DNA from: a virus
Lineage: Duplodnaviria > Caudoviricetes
IMG/VR virus record: IMGVR_UViG_3300034410_000474
Coordinates: 1 to 64,000 of that record
DNA length: 64,000 nucleotides
Strand: one strand, 5' to 3'
Part shown: piece after piece, positions 1 through 14,943 of the stretch
Position numbering within the stretch: the first letter of the stretch is position 1
Layout of the letters: each line of letters opens with the position of its first letter
Notes under the pieces: generated by a model
What the model was told of the DNA's origin: nothing
The model's input: only the letters and a program-made list of their open reading frames with translations
Database searches by the model: none
Made by a program: the position numbers and the translations under genes

Positions 1-3000
1 ATAATAACTTTACAATGTACAACTCAGGTGCAACTGGTATATTCTCTGCACTTTCATCTGGTGATTTTATTATTAATAATGATTCAACAACATATACAGT
101 TTCAGACAACACAGCTTTAGTTGGTTCAATTTCTAATAATAAATTACACGTCGATGGATCAATACAACTTAACGGTGCAAATGATGCAATCGTATTTGGT
201 AACGGTACTTCAACATTCTTAAAAGATGAAGAACTAGGATTTGGTTGGGGCGGCGGTCTTTATATGACTGAAGCCACTACAATGAAGATTCGTAACAACA
301 AAAATCTTTATACAACTGGAAATATTACTGGTACTCGTTTCTACGACACAGATGCTAACTACTATTTAGATCCAGCCGGCGATTCACAATTAAATACAAT
401 CGATATCGATGATTACATTAGACATCGTGGCGATACAAATACTTATATTGGATTTGACGCAAATGACAGATTTAGAATCTGGACTGGCGGAACACAAAGA
501 GTAAATATTGATAATAACTCTGCTGATTTCGGAGTTAACGTTTATGCTCCTCGTTATTATGATTCAAATAATAATAACTACTATGTAGATCCAGCCGAAG
601 ATTCAATCATGAATAGTATTATTCTCGATGATTGGATTTATCATAACGGAAATACAGACGCTTACTTTGGTTGGGCTGGTAATAACAACTTTAAAGTATA
701 TACAAACGGAACACAGCGTTTTAATATCGACGCTAACTCAGCAGACTTTGCAGTTAATGTATATGCTCCTCGTTATTATGATTCTAACGACAATCTATAT
801 TACGTAGATCCTGCATCTACTTCAAGAATGAATAATGTTACGTTTGGTATTCCAGGCAATGGTGCTAATACTAAAGGTCGTTACTTATCTATCGAAGGTA
901 ATACTGATTCAAGTGGAGAAGGTTCAGCTCGTATATTCTTTGCAGAACATAACTCATCAACTGCTTCACAAGACAAATATGGTATGGCTCTTGCATACCA
1001 AGGTGGGTCAGCAACAGTTAATAGTGTTACAGGTCAGCCAGTAACTCTAAACGGTTTATCAAACGGAACTTGGGGACTGATTGGACATAATAATAGTATC
1101 AACGGTGCTTGGGCAATGCGTGGTCCTAGAAGTGGTGACTATGTAGAAGCTCGTGGTTCATTCAGAGCTCCAATATTCTATGATTCAAATAACACTGCTT
1201 ATTACGGTGACTTTGCTTCAACATCTATAATGAATGTTGTAAGAGCTCATCAATACCAAATGGATGTATCTGGAAGATATATTGATTCACCATCTGGTAA
1301 CTACGGTACAATTAAAGTTGAAGGTGATACTGGTGGTTGGGCGGGTTACGCAATCAGAGATGATTGGGTCTTTATGTCTAATGGTACTGCTAACGCTGGT
1401 ATCTATAATGATACACGAAACGAATGGTCGTTGCAGGCGCAGGACAACAGCTGGACTCGATTGTATGCAAACGGTGTACATCAACTGTCTGCACAAAATG
1501 GATATGGTTATGCACCAACAAGCATGCGTTCACCAATATTCTATGATCACGATGATACAACTTACTTCGGTGATTTTGCATCTCGTTCTAAGCTTAAAAC
1601 TCTTGAGCTTGGTAATCAAGGTAACTTAACAGGTTCTGGTTCATATCCGCTTGGTATCTGGCACAATAACAGATATCTTGCAGGAATGAGAAATAGTGGT
1701 GCTGGTGCTAATTATCCTTGGTTGGTACATGATAATTATAACTTTAACCAAACTGGTTCTAAAGACGCATTCATTGTACACTTCAATGGAATAGGCGATA
1801 AGTTGTACTTAGATGAAGCTGGTAATATGCTTATTACTGGTGAGATGGCCGCATCAAACTATAACCTGAATGCTGGTAACGAAAACATCTCATTGAACCC
1901 ATCATATGGTGTTGGTAAAACAGAATTTAAATTATTCGACGGTGCTAAATACTGGGAAAAGAGAGCTATCCAAGCATTACAAGGTAATGAAGATTCTCCA
2001 ACTGGTACAACAGGTGAATATGTTAAATCAACCGATGCTCCAGCTCCAGCATCATATGTATTAAGAACTTCAGCATATAGAACATTCTATTCAGATTATA
2101 TTGAAGTACAACCTGGTGAAGAAGTTTACGGCGAAATGTACGTTAAACGAATTTCAGGATCAGGTGGATTATTCTATTATGGTATTGAAAGATTCGATAA
2201 AGACAAGAAACCAATTGCTGGTAATACTGGTACAACGTATTTTGTTGGTGGCGGTAATAACGTAACAAGTACTTCTTGGCAGAAGTTCTCAGGTTATACT
2301 ACTGTACCAACAACACATACTGTGTTTAGTGGATCAGATGGTCAAGGATGTAGATATGTAAGAATGAGAGTTCTTATGAACTACTCAGGTGGCGGTGCAT
2401 TAAGAGAATTCACTCCACCTATCTTAATGAGAACAAAGGTTCCATCAAGAATTCGTACAGATGAATCAGTTTACTCACCAATCTATTATGATTCAAATGA
2501 TACAAGTTATTATTTAGATCCAAACGCAACATCTAAACTAAGCACGGTCGATGCAAGTAACTTTAGAGATAGAGATAATACTGCAAGATTCATGAATCCA
2601 AACTCTGGCGGTAATGTTCAGGGTAATTGGAACTGGAATAACGGTTCTATTACTAAGCTAAACAATCTAACATTTAATGATCCTGGAGTTAATGAAGGTA
2701 TTAAGTGGGAAGGTGGTAGCTTATGGCAGATTTATGAATCACCAGATAACCAAACAAATGCTGCAGGTAATTTACAGTTTACTTCAGGTTCTGGTAATGG
2801 TACAAGAAGATTAACACTTAACGGATCAGGCGATGCTATTGCTGGTCGTTATATGGATGCATATAGATTCCGTGATAGAGATAATACTGGTTATTATGTA
2901 GAACCAGCCTCTACTTCTGTAATGGCAGAAATTTATGTCAACGATTACATACGTCATAATGGCGATACTAATACTTATCTAAGATTTCCTGGCAATGATG

Positions 3001-6000
3001 ATATGCAGCTTGTTGCTGGTGGTCGTCAAATGCTTAGAATGGCTGAAGGTACAAACCCTGATAGACTAAGATTTGTAACTGATTCTAACTGGACAGACTC
3101 TTCTGGTAACTGGGCAATGTCTGGTAACATTACAGTTTCTGGTATTGGTTATTCATTAGCAAGTGCTAGATCACCGATCTTCTACGATTATAACAATACA
3201 AATTACTATGGTGACTTTGCATCGACATCGAGAATGAATGTTATCAATGCAAATATGTATACCTTAAATGATGGTTGGGATATTTACGATGATAATGGTG
3301 AAACATTAAATATTCGTTCTAATAACTCTGACCACGGTTATATTATATTTAGAGATTCAAATAGTACAGATTGTGGTAGAATTGAATTCGACGATGATAA
3401 CTTCTTCGGTTTAAAAACACCTGCTAATGAGTGGGGTGTTTATATTGAAAATAATGCTCGAGTTTATACTTACTATAATGGTACTTGGGAAGAAAGAACA
3501 GCTCCAGGTTATATGGAAGCTCGTGGATCTTACCGTGCTCCAATATTCTATGATTCAAATGATACTGGATTCTATGCAAATCCAAATGCAACTTCAAGAT
3601 TCCGTGATTTAACAACACTTGGTGTAATTAACACACCAGGAGTTACAGGATATGCGGGAGCATTATTAAGAAGAGATAATAGAACTATTGAGCCAAATGA
3701 TGATCCAGCCGGACAATTAAAGTTTGGTTTCGGTTCTTGGAACAATAATAACACTGCTCCTTGGGCTGATTATTTACACTTAAGATCATACACAGATTCT
3801 TCCGGTGGATCAGATAACCTTCTTATGTTTAAGAAGTCTGGTCGTGGAATGCGTCTATATCAACAGTCTTGGAACTCAGGTTCAGTATATTCAGCATACT
3901 CTGACTTAGCTATCTATAACGCTAATCCAGGCGGTGGTTCAAATGCATACTTCTACGCAAGTAGATACTATGATTCAGATGATACTGGTTATTACTTAGA
4001 TCCAAATAGTAACTCACGTATTAAGCATCTTAAAGTTGCTGCTACAAGTGCTAATGCAAGATATGACTTTGCTGCTCTTGAAGTTAGAGAACTTAACCAT
4101 GCTGGTGCTCAAAGTGCTAATGCTCAAACTGCACCAAGAATTGGTTTCCACTGGGGTGGACGAGTTGCATCGCAAATTATGCTTGAAACAAATGGTGAGA
4201 TCCAGATTAGAAACAATCCTGGTACTGGCTATGAAGATTTCAGAGCACAAATTGGTTACTTCCAAGGTGATGTAAGAGCTCCTCGTTATTACGATTCAAA
4301 TAACACTGGCTATTACGGTGACTTTGCAAGTACATCGGTAATGAATACGATTGATAACCGTGGTGAAATCTATAATGATGGTTGGTTCCGTAACGATGTA
4401 AGTGGTCGTGGTCTTTATAATACTGCTACTGCAATGCATTGGTATTCAACTGGATCAAATGCTTGGAGAGCTTATTCTACAGCAAGTACTGTAAGAATTG
4501 ATATGCACACATCTGGTAATAACAGACGTGGTGCATTCTATGCAAATAACAGTAACGAAGTAGGTATTCTATCGCAAGATGACGGTTGGGCGTTACAAAC
4601 TACTAACTCTAAAGTAGATTCACATCATAACTTCTATGCTCCTATCATGTACGATAGAAATGATAGTAACTATTATGTAGATCCTAACGGTACATCTCGA
4701 ATGAACCAAGTTAGAGCTAACTACTTTACAAATGATGGCGGCGCAAGTTCAAACGATCTCTTTGGTTTATATTGGGATTCAGGTAGATCACAGGCATATG
4801 CAATCTTTAGAGAATCAGGTGGTTGGTCTTATCCATATCCTGATCTAAGAATTGCTTTCCATACTGGTATTAAGTTTGGTGCAAACGCTTCTTACCAAGG
4901 TATGCGTTTCTATACTGACTATAATATGTCTGGTCAGGTTATGTCGATTAACAACGGTTCTGATCCACTTGGTGGCGGTAACGTTTATGTTAACAATAAC
5001 CTACAAGCTGGTTCATCGTTAAGAGCTCCAATATTCTACGATTCAAATAACACTGGTTATTATTTCGACGGTGCGTCGGCTCACAGTACAAGATTTGAAG
5101 GTGTAAGTGCTAGAACAATGGCATACACTAACAAACCTGGTCATACAAGAAACTCTGGTGATTATTACAGATCGAGACCAAGACAAACTGGTGACAGTAA
5201 CTATTGGACTGGTGCTTCAGGTTGGGGACGTCAGGATATGAACGTCGTTGGTACTTGGGGTTCAGGCTTTATCGATTCTTGGTCAAACCCACCTAACCAG
5301 CCTTCAGGTACATCTCACTGGGTTGGTACTCAGGCTTATCACTATAGAAGTTCTAATACTTCTGGTTATGGTTGGCAAATGGTTGGTGGTCCAATTGAGA
5401 ACTTAAGATTCCGTTCTTCTTGGGCTGGTTGGAGATCTTGGAGAACAATTCCAATGCTTGGTGTTAACAATGGTAATGGAGCTGCAATGTATGCAAGCAT
5501 CTATTACGATTCAAATAACACTGGTTACTATTGTGATCCATCATCGTTCTCTAACTTTAATAGTGGTATGCGTGCTACTGAGATTTATGCTCGTAACTGG
5601 TTCCGTAATGATAACTCTCGTGAAGGTATGTATAACTCAGCTACTGGTTCTCATTCTTATTCCTATCAAGGACAGTACTGGGCAATAACCGGTAACAATA
5701 ACAGTTCATCTATGTCTCTACAACTTAGAGCGGCATATAACGGTACAATGTGTCGTTGGATGTATGGTGATAGAACTTGGTCTGGTGATCTTAACGCTGC
5801 TGGTCAATGGCAATTCCAAACTCGTCACACAGATGGTTACTCACCGTCTCTAAGATTCATTGAATCTGGTAACGAATCATGGACTGGTAACATTGGTAAC
5901 GATGCTGGTAAACTTGAATATCACTCAAACCGTTTCTATCTAGAAGCTGGTGGTAACTCAAACAGAATCGTTCAGTTTAGACGTAATGGTTCTAACAGAT

Positions 6001-6446
6001 CATATATTGATAACAACGGTCTTTATGTCGGTACTGCTACTTCAGCTCGCTGGGCTGACCTTGCGGAAAGATATACCGCTGATGCAATCTATGAAAATGC
6101 AACTGTTATGGGTATTAACATTGATGGTGATTCTGAAGTTACTAAGTGGGAAAAGGGAATGCCTTTAGCAGGTGTTATCTCTACTAATCCAGCTGTTCAA
6201 ATGAACGATATGGGTATTAAACCAGGAAGTAATTCTAAGAAAGCTAAAATGAATCCATTCATTGCTCTTAAAGGACGTATTCCAGTCTTAGTAGTTGGCG
6301 ATGTTAAGAAAGGCCAATGGGTAATTCCAGCTGGTGATGGTAAAGGTAAAGGCGTAGACTACGGAACTCCTGGTATAAATAGTTATGATATAATTGGTAT
6401 TGCAGTTGGCAATAGTGAAAATGGTGAAGTAGAGGTTAAAGTATAA
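1..6446 (+). CDS. Long modular tail fibre / receptor-binding protein (5' end probably outside the window)
   Basis: 2143-aa G/N/S/Y-rich ORF from 15, but the frame is open back to the window edge. About 15 copies of an (A/S)P(I/R)(F/Y)YD.NNT.YY.DP.S.S spacer. C-terminal SARWADLAERY...GVISTNPA...IALKGRIPV resembles the auto-cleaving chaperone domains of phage fibres. Confidence 0.8.
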   Translation, partial: NNFTMYNSGATGIFSALSSGDFIINNDSTTYTVSDNTALVGSISNNKLHVDGSIQLNGANDAIVFGNGTSTFLKDEELGFGWGGGLYMTEATTMKIRNNKNLYTTGNITGTRFYDTDANYYLDPAGDSQLNTIDIDDYIRHRGDTNTYIGFDANDRFRIWTGGTQRVNIDNNSADFGVNVYAPRYYDSNNNNYYVDPAEDSIMNSIILDDWIYHNGNTDAYFGWAGNNNFKVYTNGTQRFNIDANSADFAVNVYAPRYYDSNDNLYYVDPASTSRMNNVTFGIPGNGANTKGRYLSIEGNTDSSGEGSARIFFAEHNSSTASQDKYGMALAYQGGSATVNSVTGQPVTLNGLSNGTWGLIGHNNSINGAWAMRGPRSGDYVEARGSFRAPIFYDSNNTAYYGDFASTSIMNVVRAHQYQMDVSGRYIDSPSGNYGTIKVEGDTGGWAGYAIRDDWVFMSNGTANAGIYNDTRNEWSLQAQDNSWTRLYANGVHQLSAQNGYGYAPTSMRSPIFYDHDDTTYFGDFASRSKLKTLELGNQGNLTGSGSYPLGIWHNNRYLAGMRNSGAGANYPWLVHDNYNFNQTGSKDAFIVHFNGIGDKLYLDEAGNMLITGEMAASNYNLNAGNENISLNPSYGVGKTEFKLFDGAKYWEKRAIQALQGNEDSPTGTTGEYVKSTDAPAPASYVLRTSAYRTFYSDYIEVQPGEEVYGEMYVKRISGSGGLFYYGIERFDKDKKPIAGNTGTTYFVGGGNNVTSTSWQKFSGYTTVPTTHTVFSGSDGQGCRYVRMRVLMNYSGGGALREFTPPILMRTKVPSRIRTDESVYSPIYYDSNDTSYYLDPNATSKLSTVDASNFRDRDNTARFMNPNSGGNVQGNWNWNNGSITKLNNLTFNDPGVNEGIKWEGGSLWQIYESPDNQTNAAGNLQFTSGSGNGTRRLTLNGSGDAIAGRYMDAYRFRDRDNTGYYVEPASTSVMAEIYVNDYIRHNGDTNTYLRFPGNDDMQLVAGGRQMLRMAEGTNPDRLRFVTDSNWTDSSGNWAMSGNITVSGIGYSLASARSPIFYDYNNTNYYGDFASTSRMNVINANMYTLNDGWDIYDDNGETLNIRSNNSDHGYIIFRDSNSTDCGRIEFDDDNFFGLKTPANEWGVYIENNARVYTYYNGTWEERTAPGYMEARGSYRAPIFYDSNDTGFYANPNATSRFRDLTTLGVINTPGVTGYAGALLRRDNRTIEPNDDPAGQLKFGFGSWNNNNTAPWADYLHLRSYTDSSGGSDNLLMFKKSGRGMRLYQQSWNSGSVYSAYSDLAIYNANPGGGSNAYFYASRYYDSDDTGYYLDPNSNSRIKHLKVAATSANARYDFAALEVRELNHAGAQSANAQTAPRIGFHWGGRVASQIMLETNGEIQIRNNPGTGYEDFRAQIGYFQGDVRAPRYYDSNNTGYYGDFASTSVMNTIDNRGEIYNDGWFRNDVSGRGLYNTATAMHWYSTGSNAWRAYSTASTVRIDMHTSGNNRRGAFYANNSNEVGILSQDDGWALQTTNSKVDSHHNFYAPIMYDRNDSNYYVDPNGTSRMNQVRANYFTNDGGASSNDLFGLYWDSGRSQAYAIFRESGGWSYPYPDLRIAFHTGIKFGANASYQGMRFYTDYNMSGQVMSINNGSDPLGGGNVYVNNNLQAGSSLRAPIFYDSNNTGYYFDGASAHSTRFEGVSARTMAYTNKPGHTRNSGDYYRSRPRQTGDSNYWTGASGWGRQDMNVVGTWGSGFIDSWSNPPNQPSGTSHWVGTQAYHYRSSNTSGYGWQMVGGPIENLRFRSSWAGWRSWRTIPMLGVNNGNGAAMYASIYYDSNNTGYYCDPSSFSNFNSGMRATEIYARNWFRNDNSREGMYNSATGSHSYSYQGQYWAITGNNNSSSMSLQLRAAYNGTMCRWMYGDRTWSGDLNAAGQWQFQTRHTDGYSPSLRFIESGNESWTGNIGNDAGKLEYHSNRFYLEAGGNSNRIVQFRRNGSNRSYIDNNGLYVGTATSARWADLAERYTADAIYENATVMGINIDGDSEVTKWEKGMPLAGVISTNPAVQMNDMGIKPGSNSKKAKMNPFIALKGRIPVLVVGDVKKGQWVIPAGDGKGKGVDYGTPGINSYDIIGIAVGNSENGEVEVKV

Positions 6447-6447
6447 G

Positions 6448-6825
6448 ATGGCATCATATGCAACATTGAATAATAATATGCAAACACAGTGCGGGCGTCA
6501 GCTTCGTACGTTTGATAGGACTATGCTATTGAGAGTAAACGTTTACGTTCGTGGAACTGGTGTAACGAGTTATACTTCAGGCGGAAACTATTATCATAGA
6601 TTTGAATATGTAAACGCTTCATATTCTGTGTATAGTAATTATTTGTATAGTAGAATTTATACTGGTCAGTTAATTTATGACCAGGATGTTCAAGCATCTA
6701 TTACAAGTGTTGTAAGAAGAACAGTAGATTTAATCGAAGGCAGAATGAGTAATAGAACGGTTAACGCTTATCTATGCCATGCAAGTTGCCATTCTTCATG
6801 CCATTCATCGAGAGGTAGACGCTAA
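6448..6825 (+). CDS. Cys/His-repeat protein 1 (C-terminal CHASCHSSCHSSRGRR); candidate radical-SAM substrate or fibre-associated protein
   Basis: Starts 1 nt after the fibre stop, with GAGG SD upstream; clear paralog of 6825..7208. The function is inferred. Confidence 0.75.
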   Translation: MASYATLNNNMQTQCGRQLRTFDRTMLLRVNVYVRGTGVTSYTSGGNYYHRFEYVNASYSVYSNYLYSRIYTGQLIYDQDVQASITSVVRRTVDLIEGRMSNRTVNAYLCHASCHSSCHSSRGRR

Positions 6826-7208
6826 TGACTATGGATAGAGGTGACGTCAACTCGTGGGTTCAAAGCTACGGTGGAGGTCAATTAAGAACATTTGATAAAA
6901 CTGTAAGGTGGAGAGTTAATGCATATGTTAGAGCTACGAGTGGAGCTTGGAGTTATACAACAGGTGCTAACTATTACCATAGGTTTGAATATGTGAATGC
7001 TTCAAATAGCATATATAATAACTATGTAGATAGCGGTATTAATTCGGGTAACATTATTTACCCACAAGATATTGTTGATACTATGGAAGATTTAACAAGG
7101 AGAACTGTAGACGTGATAGAAGGTAGAATTAGTAATCGTACAACGAATGCTTACTTCTGCCATGCGAGTTGTCACTCCAGTTGCCATTCATCGAGAGGTA
7201 GACGCTAA
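6825..7208 (+). CDS. Cys/His-repeat protein 2 (paralog; identical C-terminal 16 aa)
   Basis: TAATG overlap with the previous gene; shares QLRTFD, NYYHRFEYVNAS, RRTVD.IEGR.SNRT.NAY and CHASCHSSCHSSRGRR. Confidence 0.75.
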   Translation: MTMDRGDVNSWVQSYGGGQLRTFDKTVRWRVNAYVRATSGAWSYTTGANYYHRFEYVNASNSIYNNYVDSGINSGNIIYPQDIVDTMEDLTRRTVDVIEGRISNRTTNAYFCHASCHSSCHSSRGRR

Positions 7209-8383
7209 TGTCAATGCAAAAATCATACTGTAGACAAATGAAATATTCAGGGCCGGATATGCTTCCACCTTCGAATGCATATAAGTATGATATTCTAATT
7301 CAAATGGAAGTATTGTCTGGATGCGAACAAGCTTGTCTAGGTTGCTTTGTAGATAAGAATATTGATGCATCGATGAATCAACAAATTATTGATAGAGCAA
7401 AAGAATTAGCCGATGGCGTTAAACGTACTGGCATGAATCTAAGAGAATTTGTTATAGGTCCAACCGATATATTTAGTGCAAGCAATACTGAAAGAGTTTT
7501 AAATAACCCAGTTGTACATGATATTATGCGAGAACATGAACATGCTCGTATCGCTGCTCCTGCAAAGTTTGATGTAGCAACTATGGAACGTGTACAAGAA
7601 ATATTTGATATTCTTGATGACGAAGATAAATTTAGACGTGAAATGATTATCGAATTTATTATGCCAATTGGTAAAATAGATCAAATGCTTAATGATATAG
7701 TTTATCACCAAGAAGTAATGCGCAAAGTTAAATTTTTTAAAGAGAATACACCAAAGCAAATGGATTGGTCTTGGACGTTACAAGCATCTAATGTTGTTGG
7801 TAAGAAAATAGATAAAGAAACATATAACAAAATTCTAAAACGTTCAGTAAGAGATTACGAAACAATCGTTGAAATGAACCCTGCATTCTCAAGAGCTCGT
7901 AATCAGTTAATTCAACGTAGTAATTTAATGGGTTGGAATAATTGGCTAGGTAACGTTATTGATGAAGATAATCATAACGAAGCTGTTATGTCAATGGCTA
8001 ATCTATATTGTAACTCAATTAACTTTATGGGAATAACAATTGTTCCTGGTAAAGATGGACCAACAACACACCTTAATGTAAACTTATATGAACAAGCATT
8101 TTTCCTTGAAAACAAAAATCTCGATGTTACAGGTTTAACGTTTGAAGAGATTTTAGATAGAAAAGACGAATTAGCAACTAAAGGAATAAATAAGTCTACT
8201 CAGGTAAAAGATTGTAATGGCTGCGAATATGCAGTAGCTTGCGCAAACAGATTAATATTCGAGGCACAAGATACATTAAATATTAATGGTTGTGTTCTTA
8301 ACAAAGATGTATTAGATCATTATAACCCGTACGATTTTACGTGGAATGATGATGCACTTAAAAAATTAGGAGAGGCTTCATGA
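7208..8383 (+). CDS. Radical SAM protein 1 (atypical, with C-terminal Cys cluster)
   Basis: CEQACLGC (CxxxCxxC); GPTD in place of GGEP; C-terminal CNGCEYAVAC...GC. Confidence 0.8.
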   Translation: MSMQKSYCRQMKYSGPDMLPPSNAYKYDILIQMEVLSGCEQACLGCFVDKNIDASMNQQIIDRAKELADGVKRTGMNLREFVIGPTDIFSASNTERVLNNPVVHDIMREHEHARIAAPAKFDVATMERVQEIFDILDDEDKFRREMIIEFIMPIGKIDQMLNDIVYHQEVMRKVKFFKENTPKQMDWSWTLQASNVVGKKIDKETYNKILKRSVRDYETIVEMNPAFSRARNQLIQRSNLMGWNNWLGNVIDEDNHNEAVMSMANLYCNSINFMGITIVPGKDGPTTHLNVNLYEQAFFLENKNLDVTGLTFEEILDRKDELATKGINKSTQVKDCNGCEYAVACANRLIFEAQDTLNINGCVLNKDVLDHYNPYDFTWNDDALKKLGEAS

Positions 8384-9474
8384 TTGGCCAAAGTTTATAT
8401 TACTTAAATAACAAAAAATATATTACCAATGTAACAAACGCTGGTACAATTGTTGATGAAATGAATAATTTTTATCATACAAAAGAACCTCGTCCTATTA
8501 AAGTAGTTCATCCATCAATGGAAGATACACAGCTTTTTGCAAGTCAAATGATGGTAGAGGCAGAAGCTAAAAGAACAGGAGTTACAGATTTATTTACTTT
8601 CCACAACTGGGAAGACGCAAATACAGTAAGTTTTATTGAAGATAACGAAAAATGTATTATTGCATATACAGATGAAAGTGATATGTTGCATGTCTTTGCA
8701 AGATATACCGCTGGTTTATTATATGCATCACAATTTTATGCTGACACAGAACATCAGGTTGATGCTATTGCTGCTCATTTTATTGAGAAAGTTGTAGAAT
8801 CTGATACTCTTTTAACTATTATGACTACATCAGATAGTTTAACTGACGCAAGAAATTATTGTACAACAGTATTATCAAACGCAGATACTCCAAGATATAA
8901 TGTTGCATATCAAAACGGTAAAAACTTTAGTTACGATTTATTATTCTTTTTACACGAACATTATCCATGTACAGCTGTAGCTAATCTTATAATTGAGAAA
9001 TTTACTGTTCATTCTAGCGAAATTGTTAAAGATGTTATGGAACAATTTACAGCACAACGTAGAGATATGGCTTATATCATATCAGTAATCGATTGGATGA
9101 ATACTAATGCAACAGACGCTAATGAATACACTACTGATAAAACTGCATTTATTAATAAAGTATTTGTAACTCCACATGTAAATGGAAATTGGACAGTTCC
9201 TTTCTATGCATTAAACGAGTTATGGGATAAAGTAAAAGACGATGCAGCATTTATAGCTGCACATACGAGTAAAACAAATCCAATCGGTGGTTGGGAATAT
9301 AATGATCAATATAATGAGATCAATCATTTAATACCTACAGTGAAAAAGGTATTAGAAAGAACTTGGAATGCCGATAATCTTACTGCTGAGCTTAAATTAC
9401 TAGATACTGATGTTCAATTCTTTTCGAGAAGGCAAAATAGGATTCCGTATCTAATACATAAATATACATTATAA
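8380..9474 (+). CDS. Hypothetical protein in the radical-SAM locus
   Basis: 364-aa ORF with ATGA overlap to rSAM1; no recognisable motif. Confidence 0.7.
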   Translation: MIGQSLYYLNNKKYITNVTNAGTIVDEMNNFYHTKEPRPIKVVHPSMEDTQLFASQMMVEAEAKRTGVTDLFTFHNWEDANTVSFIEDNEKCIIAYTDESDMLHVFARYTAGLLYASQFYADTEHQVDAIAAHFIEKVVESDTLLTIMTTSDSLTDARNYCTTVLSNADTPRYNVAYQNGKNFSYDLLFFLHEHYPCTAVANLIIEKFTVHSSEIVKDVMEQFTAQRRDMAYIISVIDWMNTNATDANEYTTDKTAFINKVFVTPHVNGNWTVPFYALNELWDKVKDDAAFIAAHTSKTNPIGGWEYNDQYNEINHLIPTVKKVLERTWNADNLTAELKLLDTDVQFFSRRQNRIPYLIHKYTL

Positions 9475-9492: not shown

Positions 9493-10302
9493 ATGAGTGA
9501 AAAAGAAAAACTAGACAATGAAGAAATGATTGATATGGAGCTTACTGATATTTCTCAGTTAAAATGTTATACGCTTCCATTATCGCCACAAGATCTCGTT
9601 GCAATTTATAAAGAAAAGGGTGAAGACTCAGAAGACGAATATGTCTTGTGGGTAAATTATGCCGATTCAAGATTAAAATTATCTCCTCAACATATTCTAA
9701 TTTATCTCGCAAATACTAATTTCAATACAACATTTTCTGCTATTGACGATGATCTGCTTATTGAATATATTAAAACAGATTTCTTAGTTAACGCGCCTCT
9801 TCTTTCTCGTATTCTTACTAATATTATTAAAACAAAGTTTGGACATCCATTAGCTCCATTAGAAAAAGAGTTATATAATATATTTGATGAAGAACGTATT
9901 ATTAACTTTATTAAGAACAATGGTGAATTGCTTGACGAAGTTGTAGAAAGCATTGCATCAGTAATTCCATTTAGTCTTGTAAAATTAAATGAAAACTTGT
10001 CAGAAGAAAACCAAGCAAAAGAAGTAGAACTGCAGGAAACATTATCAGAAATTAAAGTAGTTGATACAAAAACAAATTGTGGACCAAACGTTGCAATGAT
10101 GATTAAAGCAACTTGGGATGTGTTTCTTGTCATTACACATTATCGTGGATTAAGCTTAGAATATAATAAGAATCTTTATAACGATACTCCGAAGTATTAT
10201 GGTAAAGACTTATTCTACGTTTTAAATCATTCTAATATTGTTAATAACATATTAGACTTTTTCCCACCAGGATACTTCATAACAATCGATAAAGAAGAAT
10301 AA
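9493..10302 (+). CDS. Hypothetical acidic protein in the radical-SAM locus
   Basis: 269-aa ORF with GAGGTG SD; no recognisable motif. Confidence 0.7.
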   Translation: MSEKEKLDNEEMIDMELTDISQLKCYTLPLSPQDLVAIYKEKGEDSEDEYVLWVNYADSRLKLSPQHILIYLANTNFNTTFSAIDDDLLIEYIKTDFLVNAPLLSRILTNIIKTKFGHPLAPLEKELYNIFDEERIINFIKNNGELLDEVVESIASVIPFSLVKLNENLSEENQAKEVELQETLSEIKVVDTKTNCGPNVAMMIKATWDVFLVITHYRGLSLEYNKNLYNDTPKYYGKDLFYVLNHSNIVNNILDFFPPGYFITIDKEE

Positions 10303-10308
10303 TCTTCA

Positions 10309-11469
10309 ATGCCCATAATAAAGAATAATCTTTATCATGCACTTACAACTGAAACAATTACAAAACCTGTTTCTGCTGTTAAGCTGCAATTAGATGTTCT
10401 CGATGGCTGTAAACATAAATGCCCTGGATGTTTTGTACATCGAAGAGGTAATTCCAGTGATGAGAATCAATTTAAAGATGCAGTAAAATTTGTAGATGAT
10501 ATCGCATCTCGTGGTATTCTTATCGATGAAATCATTATTGGTCCTACTGACTTTTTATCATCAGAAAACTTCTATGAAGTAATGCCTCATTTAGTCGATA
10601 TGATTAATGAGCATTCTCCTATTTTAGCTTTTATTACAACTCTTATTGATGATGAACTTGAGCCTTGGGTTAAATGGCTTAAAGAAAGTATTAACTTAAA
10701 TACTGAAATAGAGATAGGTATCGCAATTGATCCTCATAAGTTTCAGAATCAAATAAATTACGTCGAAAATATTAAACGTAAACTTAATTATATTAGTGAT
10801 AATGTAGAGCATGATGTTGTTTATACGTTCTTACTTAATATTAAAGACTATGGTTTAGACTATCAAGTATTGCATGCTCAAGCAGTAAAAGAGTTTTCCA
10901 CAACTATAGACTTTATCCCGTCAGTGTCTCGATCAGCGAGGCCTCACATTACTTTAGCAACTATCGATAAATTTAACGAATACTTTAATATATTAGCCGT
11001 TGGAGACAAGATTAATAATATTATGGTAGATCATTCGCACGCTGGTATGAATTATACAGTCCTTAATTACAAGAAAGGTAATTGGTGGTTATCGCCATTT
11101 ATGTATGAGAATATGGCTGTCGAAGATGATGTGTTTAAAATCGAAAAGTTTGAAGATATACAATTAGTTACTGAATCTCAAATAGAAAGAGCAAAGGGTA
11201 CAGAATGCGAATCATGTCCTATGTTCTTCTCATGCTATAACAGGAAAATTATCTTATTAAGAGATTATCTTGGAGTCAAACGTTGTATTGCACCTAAAGA
11301 AAATATGATAAATAACCTGCACAACTTTGATAGTGCAGCACAAGAAATGTATAACTGGTCTGAATATACGCCAGAAGCAGATAAGAACGGATACCGTAAA
11401 AAGTTTACACTTACTGACGATACGAATGGTAAAGAACTCAATCGAATAAAGAGTATTTTTTACACTTAA
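10309..11469 (+). CDS. Radical SAM protein 2 (paralog of rSAM1)
   Basis: CKHKCPGC; IIIGPTDFLSSEN; C-terminal CESCPMFFSCYNR...RC. Confidence 0.8.
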   Translation: MPIIKNNLYHALTTETITKPVSAVKLQLDVLDGCKHKCPGCFVHRRGNSSDENQFKDAVKFVDDIASRGILIDEIIIGPTDFLSSENFYEVMPHLVDMINEHSPILAFITTLIDDELEPWVKWLKESINLNTEIEIGIAIDPHKFQNQINYVENIKRKLNYISDNVEHDVVYTFLLNIKDYGLDYQVLHAQAVKEFSTTIDFIPSVSRSARPHITLATIDKFNEYFNILAVGDKINNIMVDHSHAGMNYTVLNYKKGNWWLSPFMYENMAVEDDVFKIEKFEDIQLVTESQIERAKGTECESCPMFFSCYNRKIILLRDYLGVKRCIAPKENMINNLHNFDSAAQEMYNWSEYTPEADKNGYRKKFTLTDDTNGKELNRIKSIFYT

Positions 11470-11522: not shown

Positions 11523-12005
11523 ATGAACTTTAATGAGTTTGAAGAATTTGTATTAAGTGAAAAATGTTTCAATAACCACGACGTTTCTTATATAGACGAC
11601 GATGGATTGCAGCACTATTTGACTTATGATTCTTATTACGAGTACCATCCTAAAATTATGCATCAGCTCTTAATGACTAATAATACAATTAAAGTCGAGC
11701 AGATGGAAAGACATTACGGATATATAAATCAAACGGCACATGTTTTCTTTAACAAGAAAGATGGGCCTACTTTTGGTGTGCATACAGATCCTGTAAAAGT
11801 TATTATAGAATGCTTAGATGGAACTAAGTATATGGAAGTCGAAGGAAGAGAAGTTGAATTAAGACCTGGAGAATACGTTCATATTCCACCGAATACAGAA
11901 CACCGGGCACTAAATTATAAAAAGGCATTGATGGTAAGTTATGGCATTAGCGACACAGAAACACTTGATGGTATACGTGAAAACAACGGAGACATGCAAT
12001 CTTAA
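11523..12005 (+). CDS. Cupin/JmjC-like Fe(II) oxygenase
   Basis: FGVHTD (HxD) plus distal HIPPNTEHRA; double-stranded beta-helix pattern. Confidence 0.65.
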   Translation: MNFNEFEEFVLSEKCFNNHDVSYIDDDGLQHYLTYDSYYEYHPKIMHQLLMTNNTIKVEQMERHYGYINQTAHVFFNKKDGPTFGVHTDPVKVIIECLDGTKYMEVEGREVELRPGEYVHIPPNTEHRALNYKKALMVSYGISDTETLDGIRENNGDMQS

Positions 12006-12981
12006 TTGTTCTCATTGTTTCACGTCTGGCAGTAAAGGTAGAAAGATATATTTTAAACCAAAGGAAACCGCCGAATGGTGCAATGGTTTAGATAGTGACT
12101 CATGCGATAAAGCTATACATTTCGAGTATCACGGCGGTGAACCTATGCTTGCTCCGATGGAAGATATTATGGAATTCTATAATATTACTAAGCAACACTG
12201 GGGCGATCGTTGTACTCACGGAATTACTTCAAATCTAGTATTTAAAATAAAAGACGAGCATCTTAAGTTCTTTAAAGAATGTATTACAGGTGGATATGTT
12301 GCTACATCGTGGGATCCTAATATACGATTTGCAAATGAGAAACAGCGTAAGCTTTGGGAAGACAATGTTAAGATGTTAGTTGCCGAAGGTTTAGATATTA
12401 AATGTTTTATATCAGTATCTAAAGACGTAGTTGCTATGGATCCACTTGAAATTGCTGATTATATGCATTCACTTGGTATTGTTGATATATCTTATGAGCG
12501 TTTAACTCATAACGGTAATGCAACAATCAATATGGATATATTTCCACATAATAGAGAACTCGATGATTTCTGGATGCGTATGCATCAAACAACAAAAGAT
12601 CATCCTGTAAGTAATTCATTCTTAGAAACTGTATACGCTAAATTTGATAAAGAAGCAGATACAAGAGCTGGTACATTCTGTAGAGATTGCGAACAAAAAC
12701 TTCATACAATTAATGCTGATGGTACTATCGCAGGTTGTCCAAATTCTGCCCCTACAGATCACTATGGACATATCAGTCAACCAGTTCCAAAGGTTCGTGG
12801 ATGCTTTAAGCGTATGGAAATTATTGCACAAGAGTTACACGTTCGTGATATGAGATGTTATTCATGTCCTGTATTTGATATATGTCACTCTGATTGCCAT
12901 CAATTAGAATGGATGGATGATGTATGTCCCGCTCCTAAGTCATTAATGTTAGAGTTGGCGAAGGAAAAGCAATGGATCTAA
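11941..12981 (+). CDS. Radical SAM/SPASM protein 3
   Basis: TCNLNCSHC, HGGEP, SPASM-like CRDC...GCP...CYSCPVFDICHSDC. Confidence 0.9.
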   Translation: MALATQKHLMVYVKTTETCNLNCSHCFTSGSKGRKIYFKPKETAEWCNGLDSDSCDKAIHFEYHGGEPMLAPMEDIMEFYNITKQHWGDRCTHGITSNLVFKIKDEHLKFFKECITGGYVATSWDPNIRFANEKQRKLWEDNVKMLVAEGLDIKCFISVSKDVVAMDPLEIADYMHSLGIVDISYERLTHNGNATINMDIFPHNRELDDFWMRMHQTTKDHPVSNSFLETVYAKFDKEADTRAGTFCRDCEQKLHTINADGTIAGCPNSAPTDHYGHISQPVPKVRGCFKRMEIIAQELHVRDMRCYSCPVFDICHSDCHQLEWMDDVCPAPKSLMLELAKEKQWI

Positions 12982-14039
12982 TTATTAAGCCTACCGAGGC
13001 TTGTAACTTTAAATGTAGCTTTTGCTCGTCTACTGCGATCGATCCTGATCATGCAGGATTACTCGACTTAGATTACATCTATAAGTTTTTAAAACGATAT
13101 CCAGATACTGCTACTATTATTGTAAATGGTGGCGATCCATTAATGGTAGATCCAAGCTATTATTGGAAACTTATCGATCATTTAGATGAACATAATTATC
13201 CCGCAACTATTAGTTTTACAACTAACCTATGGCCGTTTCTTATTAAACCAAAGAAGTGGGTAGATCTATTTAATCATGATCGATTAGGTATTTGTACATC
13301 ATTTCAGTATGGTGGCGGTAGATTAAAAGGTGATTTCTCAGAATTTACTGAAGCAGATTTTTGGTTGTGCTCGGATGCAATGCTTAAACACTGTGGTTAT
13401 AGACCAGATTTTATTGCAGTTATTGTCGAAGAAAATATCGATGATGCTATTAAGAACGTAGAACTTGCTAAGGAAATGGGAGTTGTTTGTAAACTTAATT
13501 ATGCAATGGCTTCTGGTATTCAAGGTACAACATTACAGTTAAGTAAGATATACGATCTATATGTAAAGATTTACGATATGGGTCTTGCTGATTGGGAATG
13601 GAATACTCAGCAAATGATGAAACGACTTGGTGGTTCTGCAACTACTTGTCCACAAAATAGAAACTGCGATTCAGGTATACGTGCATTAAATCCTGGTGGT
13701 GACTATTATTCGTGTGGCGCATTTGGAGATGATATGGATTATCCTATTAATTTCCAAGAAGAAGTTATTGATAATGGTCCTTTGCAAACTCCATTGCAAT
13801 TAGATCCAAATATTCAATCAATGAAAACTGCATGTTTTACTTGTCCTATGTTCCAGATCTGTAATGGTTGTAAGAAAACAGTCCGTGATATGAAACGAGA
13901 AGGAACAGTAGAATCTCATTGTAGACAAATGAAAACACTTGCACCAAGAATATTAGAGATTAATGGACTTGATCCTAATAGTGTAACACCTTATGTTGAC
14001 GAAACACCTGATAATATGATCGCAATAGCTAATATATAA
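12972..14039 (+). CDS. Radical SAM/SPASM protein 4
   Basis: ACNFKCSFC, NGGDP, CPQNRNC...YSCG...CFTCPMFQICNGC. Confidence 0.9.
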   Translation: MDLIIKPTEACNFKCSFCSSTAIDPDHAGLLDLDYIYKFLKRYPDTATIIVNGGDPLMVDPSYYWKLIDHLDEHNYPATISFTTNLWPFLIKPKKWVDLFNHDRLGICTSFQYGGGRLKGDFSEFTEADFWLCSDAMLKHCGYRPDFIAVIVEENIDDAIKNVELAKEMGVVCKLNYAMASGIQGTTLQLSKIYDLYVKIYDMGLADWEWNTQQMMKRLGGSATTCPQNRNCDSGIRALNPGGDYYSCGAFGDDMDYPINFQEEVIDNGPLQTPLQLDPNIQSMKTACFTCPMFQICNGCKKTVRDMKREGTVESHCRQMKTLAPRILEINGLDPNSVTPYVDETPDNMIAIANI

Positions 14040-14040: not shown

Positions 14041-14943
14041 ATGAATATATCAATTAATCCTACTTATTATTGTAACTTTCGATGTGATTTCTGTTACTTA
14101 ACTGAAGCTCAACTTGCTGATAGGAATAAGATTAGTCCTGAAAAGCTTGATGAAGTATTAAGTAAAGTCACAGATCCAATAGAACATATTGATCTATATG
14201 GCGGTGAAATTAGCCTATTGACAAAAGAGTATTTTTATGATATAAAAGATGTGATACGTAAATATTATGATGGTGATATAAACATTAACACTAATTTTAG
14301 TGCATTACCAGATTACTTTTATGATGACGATATTACAATAAGTGTATCGTATGATTTTTCTGCACGAGAAAAAGAACAATTTGTTTTAAACAATATGATG
14401 GCTTCTCGTAAACCATTATCTGTTTTGATATTAGCATCAGAAAAAGTATTGGCAACTGATGTGGAGTTTATGATCTTTACATTAAACATGTGTTCACAGG
14501 TAAAATCAGTAGAAATCAAACCATATTCTACTAATCAAGCTAATGCGCATCCTGTAACACATCGAGATTTTGAAGAACATATTAAGAAATGGATTGACGC
14601 AAAAACTGAGAAAAGGTTTCAGTTTATTAACCAAGATCTAATAGAAGATGCTCTCGACGGTAATTATTCAGCGTTCAGTGATGATCATGTATATATAACA
14701 CCGAAGGGTAAATTTGGCGTATTGGAGTTCGATAAATACGATCGAGAGTATTTCAAAGAATATTCTACGTACGAAGAGTACAAGCAATGGGCAGCACTTG
14801 AGCCTATCAACAACGTATCTGATATCTGTAAAGCATGTCCATATTATGGCGGATGTTTAACAGAACATTATAGATATGTACGAGATTTAGACAACAGCTG
14901 TAACGGATATAGAGGATTATTAGATTGGTATGATGGGAAATAA
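14041..14943 (+). CDS. Radical SAM protein 5 (short C-terminal Cys cluster)
   Basis: YCNFRCDFC, YGGE, CKACPYYGGC...SC. Confidence 0.85.
   Translation: MNISINPTYYCNFRCDFCYLTEAQLADRNKISPEKLDEVLSKVTDPIEHIDLYGGEISLLTKEYFYDIKDVIRKYYDGDININTNFSALPDYFYDDDITISVSYDFSAREKEQFVLNNMMASRKPLSVLILASEKVLATDVEFMIFTLNMCSQVKSVEIKPYSTNQANAHPVTHRDFEEHIKKWIDAKTEKRFQFINQDLIEDALDGNYSAFSDDHVYITPKGKFGVLEFDKYDREYFKEYSTYEEYKQWAALEPINNVSDICKACPYYGGCLTEHYRYVRDLDNSCNGYRGLLDWYDGK

What the first reader, a model, noticed from the sequence alone, without database searches (positions are those of the whole stretch)
6775..7208. C-terminal CHASCHSSCHSSRGRR is identical in both paralogs despite synonymous divergence
Seen: the two proteins differ widely overall, yet their last 16 residues are identical. 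In the CHASCHSS part the codons differ at five synonymous sites (gca/gcg, tgc/tgt, cat/cac, tct/tcc and a Ser-family switch tca/agt). Inference: purifying selection acts on the exact C-x3-C-x3-C / H-x-S pattern, as expected for an enzyme-modified core peptide or a metal site. The ~105-aa N-terminal part would be a folded leader or structural domain.
Basis: partly seen in the sequence, partly recalled or inferred. Interest (0 to 1): 0.78.

Follow-up and report, generated by a model that had tools for sequence, protein, structure and literature searches.

The report
Cys-His-tailed phage proteins, radical-SAM partners
Two small neighbouring genes behind the giant tail fibre of a marine T4-like phage end in the same 16-residue Cys-His-x-Ser tail, which is kept almost unchanged in hundreds of very different phages and always sits beside radical-SAM enzymes, so it is most likely a chemically modified part of a virus-particle protein that no paper describes.

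Summary
The paralogs 6448-6825 and 6825-7208 are 64% identical. Both end in CHASCHSSCHSSRGRR, with the five reported synonymous codon differences.

The tail belongs to a large, phage-borne family with no Pfam model.
- In 88 distinct tail DNA sequences, Cys, His, the Ser after each x, and Arg are nearly invariant. Both synonymous codons and both Ser and Arg codon families are used.
- pN/pS is 0.03-0.09 for the 13 fixed codons and about 0.55 for the protein body.
- The three x residues vary freely between genomes but match between the two copies within a genome.

The duplication is old and the gene order is stable. The tail protein always occurs with four radical-SAM/SPASM-like enzymes, a small 136-aa protein and usually a cupin. 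In jumbo phages the tail gene directly follows the rSAM3 homologue.

The Agrobacterium phage Atu_ph07 counterpart (gp170) was found in purified virions. It was most abundant in the top gel band despite a mass of 32 kDa.

My best reading (about 0.6) is that the tail is the target of radical-SAM modification on a fibre-module virion protein. A plain metal site is the main rival.

The closest known analogue is the bacterial HXS system, but membership is not met. This scan has already met the same system in at least 17 other genomes.

The parts
15..6446 (+). Giant tail-fibre-like protein (2143 aa; the frame is open to the window start)
   Evidence: ORF. It is the upstream neighbour of the tail proteins in 29 of 29 type I loci with enough flank. 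Its stop lies 1 nt before the start of the first paralog.
6006..6446 (+). C-terminal ~145-aa fibre domain, the only fibre part shared with fibre genes of type II loci
   Evidence: BLASTP matches of type II upstream ORFs cover residues about 1998-2143 only. It matches phrog_19602 'tail fiber protein' at 1.3e-6. No PDB sequence match.
6448..6825 (+). Paralog A ('first' copy), 125 aa, folded body plus tail
   Evidence: It falls in a supported clade made only of first copies (99/93). It matches phrog_35144 at 1.9e-7.
6775..6822 (+). Tail of paralog A: (C-H-x-S)x3-R-G-R-R, 16 codons
6825..7208 (+). Paralog B ('second' copy), 127 aa
   Evidence: AF2 model m1601afe60f2c has pLDDT 84: helix 5-20, hairpin 24-55, helix 80-101, tail at low confidence. 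No fold match.
7158..7205 (+). Tail of paralog B, same 16 residues
7208..8383 (+). rSAM1: atypical CxxxCxxC protein with a C-terminal CxxCx5C motif; specific to type I loci
   Evidence: Weak Fer4_12/NrdG-type matches. Present in 21 of 21 type I loci and 0 of 21 type II loci. Its start overlaps the stop of paralog B (TAATG).
8380..9474 (+). Unknown 364-aa protein, type I specific
   Evidence: No family hit. Present in 21 of 21 type I loci.
9493..10302 (+). Unknown 269-aa protein, type I specific
   Evidence: No family hit. Present in 21 of 21 type I loci.
10309..11469 (+). rSAM2: paralog of rSAM1, type I specific; other phages hold 1-4 copies
   Evidence: Radical_SAM at 1.1e-4, phrog_31457. Mean 3.5 copies per type I locus.
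11523..12005 (+). Cupin / JmjC-like protein, preceded by a strong sigma-70-like promoter at 11473-11501
   Evidence: Cupin_2 at 3.8e-9. Promoter matches 11 of 12 positions with an extended -10. A cupin sits just upstream of the rSAM3 homologue in 19 of 21 type II loci and in RSF1, Phosso, Atu_ph07 and DT01.
11941..12981 (+). rSAM3: radical-SAM/SPASM-like enzyme and the prime candidate maturase
   Evidence: phrog_1802 at 7.6e-53. Best NCBIfam matches are peptide maturases DynA, AmcB, PapB and DarE at about 1e-10, all far below cutoff. The SPASM domain scores 24.6 bits against a cutoff of 27. It is the immediate upstream neighbour of the tail gene in 29 of 29 type II loci and 4 of 4 cultured jumbo phages.
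12972..14039 (+). rSAM4: radical-SAM/SPASM-like enzyme, core cassette member
   Evidence: Radical_SAM at 1.1e-8. anSME-like at 1.4e-11, below cutoff. Present in 21 of 21 type II loci.
14041..14943 (+). rSAM5: radical-SAM enzyme, core cassette member
   Evidence: Radical_SAM at 8.7e-8. Present in 21 of 21 type II loci.
14930..15340 (+). 136-aa protein of unknown function, core cassette member; possibly a small enzyme partner
   Evidence: phrog_20737 at 2.2e-41. Present in 21 of 21 type II and 19 of 21 type I loci. No NCBIfam hit, HxsD included.
15330..16448 (+). rSAM6: radical-SAM-like enzyme, core cassette member
   Evidence: phrog_1802 at 1.7e-20. Present in 21 of 21 loci of both types.
16445..17143 (+). 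232-aa protein of unknown function, seen in about half of type I loci
   Evidence: phrog_7084 at 3.6e-15. Present in 10 of 21 type I loci.
17143..17703 (+). 2OG-Fe(II) oxygenase
   Evidence: 2OG-FeII_Oxy_5 at 2.1e-13. Present in 21 of 21 type II loci.

Best explanation
The 16-residue C-terminal tail (C-H-x-S)x3-R-G-R-R is the conserved recognition and modification site of a phage-encoded radical-SAM/SPASM enzyme cassette. The cassette core is rSAM3-6, a 136-aa partner, a cupin and a 2OG oxygenase. This phage lineage adds rSAM1/2 and two unknown proteins.

The two paralogs are whole folded proteins, not leader-plus-core peptides. They are made together with the giant tail fibre and are modified in the cytoplasm on Cys, His and/or Ser. 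Plausible products are thioether or His-to-C-beta cyclophane-type cross-links. The proteins then become part of the virion's fibre module, probably as very stable oligomers.

Shown here:
- The motif, its extreme protein-level conservation and the within-genome covariation of the x residues.
- The old duplication.
- The strict gene linkage to the radical-SAM enzymes.
- From the literature, the virion presence of one distant counterpart.

Inferred, not shown: that the enzymes act on the tail, what the chemistry is, and that the window's own proteins are virion components.
For: 1. Selection is at the protein level. In 88 distinct tail DNA sequences, C, H and R are 88/88 and the repeat Ser are 88, 87 and 82 of 88. 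TGT/TGC, CAT/CAC, AGY/TCN and AGR/CGN are all used. pN/pS of the fixed codons is 0.03-0.09, against 0.53-0.56 in the body.
2. Invariant Ser and the invariant RGRR end are not what a plain Cys/His metal site needs. They fit an enzyme-read motif.
3. Linkage is strict. Every locus with enough flank holds rSAM6, and 21 of 21 type II loci hold rSAM3, 4, 5, 6, the 136-aa protein and the oxygenase. The tail gene directly follows the rSAM3 homologue in 29 of 29 type II loci.
4. The reverse test also holds. I started from rSAM3 homologues in cultured phages. All 4 inspected (RSF1, Phosso, Atu_ph07, pPa_SNUABM_DT01) have a gene ending in CH.SCH.SCH..R.RR right after it. The 5 full MAG loci show the same cassette.
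5. Across type II proteins (mean column identity 18%), the only invariant columns are three Cys, two His and three Arg of the tail.
6. The x residues match between the two copies of a genome at 2.31 of 3, against 0.85 of 3 when genomes are shuffled (0 of 5000 shuffles reach this). The match is still 2.04 of 3 in pairs with at least 6 nt differences. This is as expected if both tails must fit one enzyme set.
7. rSAM3's nearest curated families are cross-linking peptide maturases. His-X-X cyclophane synthases are known (PMC11499958). HxS repeats are matured by radical-SAM enzymes in HXS (PMC13128918).
8. Atu_ph07 gp170 carries the tail. It was detected in purified virions with 8 unique peptides and 35% coverage. 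It was most abundant in gel band 1, where the other well-supported proteins are 75-139 kDa, although its own mass is 31.9 kDa. The neighbouring radical-SAM proteins were not detected (PMC6102473 Table S5).
9. The tail has low confidence in both AF2 models, as expected for a flexible end accessible to enzymes.
Against: - There is no direct evidence of any modification.
- None of the six radical-SAM-like proteins reaches a curated family cutoff, so their chemistry cannot be assigned.
- Cys and His are classic metal ligands, so a metal site would also explain their invariance.
- The gene linkage could reflect a shared role in fibre maturation without the tail being the substrate.
- The band-1 migration of gp170 comes from one gel in which many proteins smear over several bands.
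- gp170 is only related through the tail and the preceding C-terminal module.
- Radical-SAM enzymes are oxygen-sensitive, while the presumed hosts live in oxic sea water.
Confidence: 0.6

Rival explanations
1. The tail is a plain metal-binding site with no covalent modification. Zn, Fe or an Fe-S cluster would be held by the three Cys and three His, perhaps shared between subunits of an oligomer. This resembles the metal ions held by His motifs in T4 fibre proteins. On this reading the radical-SAM genes act on something else in the fibre module.
For: Cys and His are the invariant residues. The i, i+4, i+8 spacing would put the Cys on one face of a helix, and AF2 draws a weak helix at 114-121. 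From general knowledge, T4 gp37 and gp12 hold Fe or Zn on their trimer axes. An SDS-stable oligomer would also explain gp170 in gel band 1.
Against: The Ser of each repeat and the R-G-R-R end are as invariant as Cys and His, which a metal site does not require. The tail gene is never found without the radical-SAM cassette, in either direction of the test. Within-genome covariation of the x residues is more easily explained by a shared enzyme than by metal geometry, although contact between tails in a hetero-oligomer could also produce it.
Confidence: 0.2
2. The tail protein serves the enzymes rather than the reverse. It would be an Fe-S cluster scaffold or carrier, or an activating partner, that supplies the 6-12 cluster-rich radical-SAM enzymes. 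Those enzymes would modify another target such as the fibre.
For: Three Cys plus adjacent His recall the ligand set of Fe-S scaffold proteins (general knowledge). Phages with more radical-SAM genes keep the same tail.
Against: The Atu_ph07 counterpart is a well-covered virion protein, while the enzymes were not detected. The bodies are hypervariable (18% mean identity), which is unlike a housekeeping scaffold. In this window the genes are translationally coupled to the fibre gene, not to the enzyme genes, which have their own promoter.
Confidence: 0.06
3. The locus makes a classical RiPP. The body would be a long leader that is cleaved off, and the modified 12-16-residue peptide would be released as a free bioactive molecule.
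For: The locus has a C-terminal Cys-rich core next to SPASM-type radical-SAM enzymes, as in SCIFF/ranthipeptide-type loci.
Against: No protease or exporter gene was recognised in the cassette. The body is a confidently folded domain of 110-290 aa. Peptides of gp170 covering 35% of the protein were recovered from virions. The genes sit in the late structural operon.
Confidence: 0.04
4. The identity of the two tails in this window is a DNA-level effect with no special protein function. It would come from gene conversion between tandem copies, or from constraint by the ribosome-binding site and start of the next gene.
For: The last 27 nt are identical and carry GAGAGGT and the TAATG overlap. In L004 and L010 the tails of the two copies differ by only 0-1 nt, so short conversion tracts probably do occur.
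Against: The first 24 nt of the tail differ at 7 positions with no amino-acid change. In L021/L022 the tails differ at 17 of 48 nt with none. The tree shows no whole-gene concerted evolution. Single-copy type II genes keep the same tail.
Confidence: 0.03

Closest known systems
HXS antiphage system (HxsA effector with His-Xaa-Ser repeats, radical-SAM enzymes HxsB/HxsC, small partner HxsD; Li et al., Nat Commun 2026, PMC13128918)
   Same: A whole protein, not a short peptide, carries tandem H-x-S repeats in a basic context. Dedicated radical-SAM enzymes mature it together with a small accessory protein. His and Ser of the modified repeat are essential.
   Different: [quoted passage not shown] Here each repeat starts with an invariant Cys. 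The motif lies at the extreme C-terminus and ends in RGRR. There are 4-9 enzymes plus a cupin and an oxygenase. The setting is a phage structural operon, whereas HXS is a bacterial defence island. No peptidoglycan-binding domain was found.
Radical-SAM/SPASM peptide maturases that form cross-links: ranthipeptide/SCIFF PapB-type thioethers; three-residue cyclophane synthases such as AmcB, GrrM/OscB, HtkB and HaaB; DynA and DarE
   Same: These are the nearest curated families of rSAM3 and rSAM5. Cys-rich C-terminal cores and aromatic-X-X motifs including His-X-X are known substrates (PMC11499958).
   Different: The scores are 20-40 bits against cutoffs of 300-650. The substrate is a folded 125-300-aa protein that stays whole. 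No leader protease or exporter was recognised. rSAM3 starts its CxxxCxxC at residue 19, so it has no N-terminal recognition domain (sequence).
Haft's CXXX-repeat peptide system (TIGR04115 maturase family)
   Same: The target shows a Cys-x-x-x periodicity, next to a radical-SAM/SPASM enzyme.
   Different: rSAM3 scores 21.9 bits against a cutoff of 350. The setting is a phage virion module.
Anaerobic sulfatase-maturating enzyme (anSME) acting on C/S-x-P/A-x-R
   Same: A radical-SAM/SPASM enzyme modifies a Cys or Ser within a whole folded protein. rSAM4's best curated hit is anSME (1.4e-11). The last repeat reads C-H-S-S-R, that is C-x-S-x-R.
   Different: The score is 44 bits against a cutoff of 349. 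The motif lacks the Pro/Ala at position 3 in most repeats. The substrate is not a sulfatase.
Metal-binding His motifs on the trimer axis of T4 fibre proteins gp37 and gp12 (general knowledge)
   Same: Metal-ligand residues repeat at short intervals in a T4-like fibre module.
   Different: The motif differs (C-H-x-S rather than H-x-H). It lies on a separate small protein at its flexible C-terminus. It is always linked to radical-SAM genes.

Membership tests
HXS system (HxsA/B/C/D) | Effector matches the HxsA model (TIGR03979, His-Xaa-Ser repeat protein) | tested here: not met
   The NCBIfam scan of both paralogs at E<=0.1 gave no HxsA hit.
HXS system (HxsA/B/C/D) | Paired radical-SAM maturases that are equivalogs of HxsB (TIGR03978) and HxsC (TIGR03977) | tested here: not met
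   rSAM3 scores 30.9 bits against HxsB (cutoff 370). rSAM4 scores 22.3 and rSAM5 17.7 bits against HxsC (cutoff 267.9). rSAM1 and rSAM2 give no hit.
HXS system (HxsA/B/C/D) | Small partner protein HxsD (TIGR03976) | tested here: not met
   The 136-aa cassette protein has no NCBIfam hit at E<=1.
HXS system (HxsA/B/C/D) | Tandem His-Xaa-Ser repeats in the matured protein | tested here: met
   There are three H-x-S units with a period of 4. His and Ser are nearly invariant.
HXS system (HxsA/B/C/D) | Bacterial defence locus whose effector is exported to the periplasm and has a peptidoglycan-binding domain | tested here: not met
   The locus lies in a phage late structural operon behind the fibre gene. 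The paralogs have no Pfam domain. Export signals were not tested.
RiPP (radical-SAM/SPASM class: ranthipeptide, triceptide, daropeptide) | Maturase reaches the curated score of a characterised family | tested here: not met
   The best scores are 40.6 bits against DynA (cutoff 450), 40.4 against AmcB (425), 39.7 against PapB (340) and 29.9 against GrrM/OscB (310).
RiPP (radical-SAM/SPASM class: ranthipeptide, triceptide, daropeptide) | SPASM or twitch auxiliary-cluster domain in the maturase | tested here: inconclusive
   Against TIGR04085 (cutoff 27), rSAM3 scores 24.6 bits, rSAM4 20.3 and rSAM6 13.5. C-terminal CxxCx5C motifs are visible in the sequences.
RiPP (radical-SAM/SPASM class: ranthipeptide, triceptide, daropeptide) | Short precursor whose leader is removed by a protease, with the product released or exported | tested here: not met
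   The bodies are folded domains of 110-290 aa. No protease or transporter family was found in the cassette. gp170 peptides covering 35% of the protein were found in virions. Cleavage itself cannot be tested here.
RiPP (radical-SAM/SPASM class: ranthipeptide, triceptide, daropeptide) | Covalent modification of the core residues | not testable with these tools
   This needs mass spectrometry of the C-terminal peptide.
CXXX-repeat peptide system | Maturase of family TIGR04115 | tested here: not met
   rSAM3 scores 21.9 bits against a cutoff of 350.
anSME / formylglycine maturation | anSME equivalog (TIGR03942) and a C/S-x-P/A-x-R motif in a sulfatase | tested here: not met
   rSAM4 scores 44.1 bits against a cutoff of 349. 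The substrate has no sulfatase domain. Only the last repeat resembles the motif.
phrog_35144 (phage protein family of unknown function) | Match to the family profile | tested here: met
   Paralog A matches at 1.9e-7 and paralog B at 3.7e-6. Both matches are to the C-terminal part of the 186-position profile. RSF1 ORF071 (186 aa) carries the tail.
T4 gp38-type adhesin or fibre chaperone encoded after the distal fibre gene | Sequence or fold similarity to gp38 or gp57-like proteins | tested here: inconclusive
   There is no Pfam or PHROG annotation of that kind. No PDB fold match was found: best Z is 5.2 for type I and 3.6 for type II. Only the gene position is similar.

The most novel reading that the evidence does not exclude
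Phages use a dedicated set of radical-SAM enzymes to install covalent cross-links in the (C-H-x-S)3 tail of a fibre-module protein. Candidate chemistries are Cys thioethers and/or His-to-Ser C-beta cyclophanes, possibly between subunits or onto the fibre. The result would be an SDS-resistant and perhaps metal-binding knot that is part of the infectious particle. That would be a new kind of virion maturation chemistry. Fibre-bearing predatory bacteria would share it. The three free x positions would co-evolve with each phage's own enzymes.
Probability: 0.35. Interest if true: 0.85.

Novelty: new variant of a known kind. Interest (0 to 1): 0.74.

Why it matters
Radical-SAM maturation of whole proteins is known for only a few cases: sulfatases, quinohemoprotein amine dehydrogenase and, since 2026, the HXS defence effector. 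I found no description of it for a virus-particle protein.

This cassette takes up 10-20 kb of phage genome. It occurs in abundant marine T4-like phages, in jumbo phages of Ralstonia, Burkholderia, Agrobacterium, Sinorhizobium and Pseudomonas, and in Bdellovibrio-like MAGs. In every case it sits beside fibre genes.

If the tail is modified, three things follow:
- It defines a new substrate motif and probably new cross-link chemistry.
- It shows that oxygen-sensitive chemistry is used by phages of oxic-ocean bacteria.
- It gives a testable handle on how host-recognition fibres are finished.

Cultured phages (RSF1, RSL2, Atu_ph07, pPa_SNUABM_DT01) make this directly testable.

Tried and rejected
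- **tblastn misses.** tblastn of paralog B and of a type II protein against 50,697 phage records found nothing. Yet RSF1, Phosso, Atu_ph07 and DT01 do hold tail proteins. The misses reflect divergence and the low-complexity filter, not absence.
- **Fold searches.** Searches with both AF2 models (Foldseek PDB and BFVD, VIA-align wide) gave no match above background. Best Z was 5.2 for type I and 3.6 for type II. This does not show that the folds are new.
- **ESM Atlas.** It gave no usable hit.
- **Body-domain repeats in larger proteins.** Two profile hits suggested this: P0165 (564 aa) and P0173 (1621 aa). Pfam shows they are a Kre9/Ig-repeat protein and a PPR/TPR protein, so I reject them as spurious.
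- **Complex prediction.** I asked for paralog A with paralog B, using alignments A3 and A4. No test of hetero-oligomerisation was made.
- **C-terminal fibre domain.** It has no PDB sequence match.
- **RGRR as a furin-like cleavage site.** I considered this and dropped it, because nothing follows RGRR in the protein.
- **Literature searches.** Searches on pelagimyophage radical SAM, jumbo phage radical SAM, and SPASM plus tail fiber found only passing mentions of radical-SAM genes. None mentions the motif.
Full report
**What is in the window.** The window is a fragment of an uncultured T4-like myophage. The record is 81.6 kb and about 38% complete. It carries T4-type sheath, portal, terminase and major head genes. 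Its nearest cultured relatives are phages of alpha- and other proteobacteria, including Pelagibacter phage Mosig, at 38-42% sheath identity.

A giant fibre-like gene (15..6446) is followed 1 nt later by two small genes, 6448..6825 (125 aa) and 6825..7208 (127 aa). Each small gene's stop overlaps the next start in TAATG. Downstream on the same strand lie:
- six CxxxCxxC radical-SAM-like genes;
- two unknown genes;
- a cupin;
- a 136-aa protein of unknown function;
- a 232-aa protein of unknown function;
- a 2OG-Fe(II) oxygenase.

**Check of the observation.** The two proteins are 64% identical. Both end in CHASCHSSCHSSRGRR. That is 7 nt changes and no amino-acid change.

The last 27 nt are identical. 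They also contain a Shine-Dalgarno-like GAGAGGT and the overlap with the next start codon. For that half, this window alone cannot exclude a nucleotide-level cause.

**The tail is a family signature under strong protein-level selection.**
- A word-indexed search found 129 relatives from marine metagenomes, and 120 were listed. Of these, 118 end in C-H-x-S-C-H-x-S-C-H-x-S-R-G-R-R with few exceptions. The other two are truncated fragments.
- A profile search of 1.84 billion cluster representatives gave 109 hits. Most are 170-320 aa, with bodies so diverged that only the C-terminal module aligns. Nearly all end in the same tail.
- In an alignment of 64 such proteins the mean column identity is 18%. 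The only invariant columns are three Cys, two His and three Arg of the tail.
- In 88 distinct tail DNA sequences from 84 loci, Cys, His and Arg are 88/88 and the repeat serines are 88, 87 and 82 of 88. TGT/TGC, CAT/CAC, both serine codon families and both arginine codon families are all used.

Nei-Gojobori counts are:

| Region | pN/pS |
|---|---|
| 13 fixed tail codons (pS about 0.85, near saturation) | 0.03-0.09 |
| Protein body | 0.53-0.56 |
| Three x codons, between genomes | about 1.0 |

Part of the small pN at fixed codons is an artefact. Ser and Arg family switches are counted through non-synonymous paths. In L021 and L022 the two tails differ at 17 of 48 nt without any amino-acid change. 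Gene conversion and ribosome-binding-site constraint therefore cannot be the general explanation. Tails that differ by 0-1 nt in L004 and L010 suggest that short conversion tracts do occur.

**The paralogs.** Among 35 distinct loci of the window's type, 31 have two tandem copies. A maximum-likelihood tree puts the first copies of 25 genomes in one supported clade (99/93), apart from the second copies. A second phage group shows the same split. The duplication is therefore old, the order is stable, and there is no whole-gene concerted evolution.

The three free x residues nevertheless agree between the two copies of a genome:
- The agreement is 2.31 of 3, against 0.85 of 3 when genomes are shuffled. 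None of 5000 shuffles reached this.
- It is 2.04 of 3 in pairs whose CHxS regions differ at 6 or more nt.
- Within-genome pN at the x codons is 0.215, against 0.56-0.58 between genomes.

The shuffle ignores relatedness, so it overstates significance. Several separate groups show the effect, however. A shared partner would explain it: one enzyme set, or contact between the two tails.

**Genomic company.** Two architectures appear.
- **Type I**, the window's type: fibre, two tail proteins, rSAM1, two unknown proteins, and 1-4 rSAM2 paralogs. The core set of rSAM3-6, the 136-aa protein and the cupin follows or lies inverted beyond.
- **Type II**: fibre-like gene, cupin, rSAM3 homologue, a single 180-300-aa tail protein, then rSAM6, rSAM4, rSAM5, the 136-aa protein and the 2OG oxygenase. 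rSAM1, rSAM2 and the two unknown proteins are absent.

In 21 of 21 type II loci with enough flank, all four core radical-SAM genes are present. In 29 of 29, the rSAM3 homologue is the gene directly upstream.

I also ran the test in reverse. tblastn with rSAM3 found 15 cultured phage records. All four that I inspected have a gene ending in CH.SCH.SCH..R.RR immediately after the rSAM3 homologue, with a cupin before it. These were Ralstonia RSF1, Sinorhizobium Phosso, Agrobacterium Atu_ph07 and Pseudomonas pPa_SNUABM_DT01.

A scan of one genome per prokaryotic species found only six loci, all in MAGs. The five full ones hold the same cassette. Three are Bdellovibrionaceae contigs. One of these is flanked by an AMP-binding enzyme gene and another by a Peptidase_S74 fibre-like gene. 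The earlier notes of this scan about predatory bacteria are therefore plausible, but I checked them only in part.

Between the two architectures, fibre similarity is limited to the last ~145 residues of the window's fibre.

**Nature of the proteins.** AlphaFold2 with family alignments gives confident bodies.
- Type I: pLDDT 84, with a helix, a long hairpin and a long helix.
- Type II: pLDDT 88 and pTM 0.82, an alpha/beta fold.
- In both, the tail has low confidence, with pLDDT 54-66.

Neither body matches a solved or predicted viral structure above background.

Published virion proteomics of Atu_ph07 list gp170, the tail protein, with 8 unique peptides and 35% coverage. It was most abundant in gel band 1. 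The other well-supported band-1 proteins are 75-139 kDa, while gp170 is 31.9 kDa. The adjacent radical-SAM and cupin-like proteins are not listed (PMC6102473 Table S5). I checked the gene numbering by the masses of gp170, gp176 and gp177. This shows that a family member is a virion component and hints at an SDS- and heat-stable or covalent high-mass form. It is one gel, with much smearing.

**Mechanism.** The best-supported reading is that the tail is the site read and modified by the radical-SAM cassette, on a whole protein that then joins the fibre module.
- The invariance of Ser and of RGRR, the strict two-way linkage and the x-residue covariation speak for an enzyme-read motif rather than a simple metal site.
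- rSAM3's nearest curated families are cross-linking peptide maturases: DynA, AmcB, PapB and DarE. rSAM5's nearest is GrrM/OscB, and rSAM4's is anSME. All score 20-44 bits against cutoffs of 270-650, so no chemistry can be assigned.
- His-X-X cyclophane synthases exist (PMC11499958). The bacterial HXS defence effector shows that H-x-S repeats in a whole protein can be matured by paired radical-SAM enzymes, with a +8 Da change on SHRSS (PMC13128918).
- In this window a strong sigma-70-like promoter precedes the cupin and rSAM3-6, while the tail genes are coupled to the fibre gene. This would let the enzymes be made before their substrate. That timing is an inference only.

**Rivals.**
- A plain Zn/Fe site, about 0.2. 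It is not excluded, and could also coexist with modification.
- An Fe-S scaffold role, about 0.06. Virion presence and hypervariable bodies argue against it.
- A released RiPP, about 0.04. There is no protease or exporter, the body is folded, and body peptides are found in virions.
- A DNA-level artefact, about 0.03. It may hold locally for the 27 identical bases.

**Comparison with what is known.** The closest functional analogue is HXS, but the HxsA, B, C and D models are not met and the setting is a phage structural operon. It is also not a member of any curated RiPP maturase family, of the CXXX-repeat system or of anSME.

The papers I could search mention radical-SAM genes in pelagimyophages and in RSL2/RSF1-type jumbo phages only in passing, and do not mention the motif. 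I therefore class it as a new variant of a known kind: radical-SAM maturation of a protein, here in a virion module with a new motif.

The same system has already been noted and followed up by this scan in at least 17 other genomes, with the same general reading.
- the codon-level numbers;
- the old duplication and the within-genome covariation of the x residues;
- the split into a universal core (rSAM3-6) and a lineage-specific add-on (rSAM1/2);
- the gel-band detail for gp170.

**Limits.**
- No modification or metal was measured.
- The covariation test does not correct for phylogeny.
- The 10-kb flanks do not reach the far end of most type I cassettes.

Noticed in passing
L092:7896-8516, L093:7551-8141, L095:7404-8051 (Bdellovibrionaceae MAG contigs): The same tail protein and radical-SAM core cassette occurs on three Bdellovibrio-like MAG contigs. 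L092 is flanked by a cellular-type AMP-binding enzyme gene. L095 is flanked by a fibre-like gene with a Peptidase_S74 chaperone domain. The cassette may therefore also serve bacterial fibre proteins, or these contigs may be phage or prophage DNA.
   Followed up: partly
window 11473-11501: A near-consensus sigma-70-type promoter (TTTACA, 17 nt spacer, TG-extended TATAAT; 11 of 12 positions) sits in the gap before the cupin and rSAM3-6. The tail genes have no such site and are coupled to the fibre gene. This suggests the enzymes and the presumed substrates are expressed at different times.
   Followed up: partly
window 17792-18208 and 18228-18554: Two adjacent small genes both match DUF7936 (1.6e-10 and 7e-14) directly after the oxygenase. 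In locus L076 their homologues lie next to the cassette on the opposite strand.
   Followed up: no
window 24589-26676: The gp15-like tail sheath stabiliser (phrog_227, residues 4-241) is extended to 695 aa. The C-terminal part matches virion structural and baseplate repeat families.
   Followed up: no
L084 (Ralstonia phage RSF1 NC_028899.1, record 74901-75461, ORF071): Cultured jumbo phages annotate their tail protein only as 'hypothetical protein'. In RSF1 a GIY-YIG nuclease gene lies between the virion structural gene and the cupin, so the cassette is not always contiguous with the fibre gene.
   Followed up: partly
type I loci such as L001:13954-18297: Most relatives of this phage carry three or four tandem rSAM2-like paralogs at 22-27% identity to each other, where the window has one. 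Copy number of this enzyme is highly variable between otherwise syntenic cassettes.
   Followed up: no
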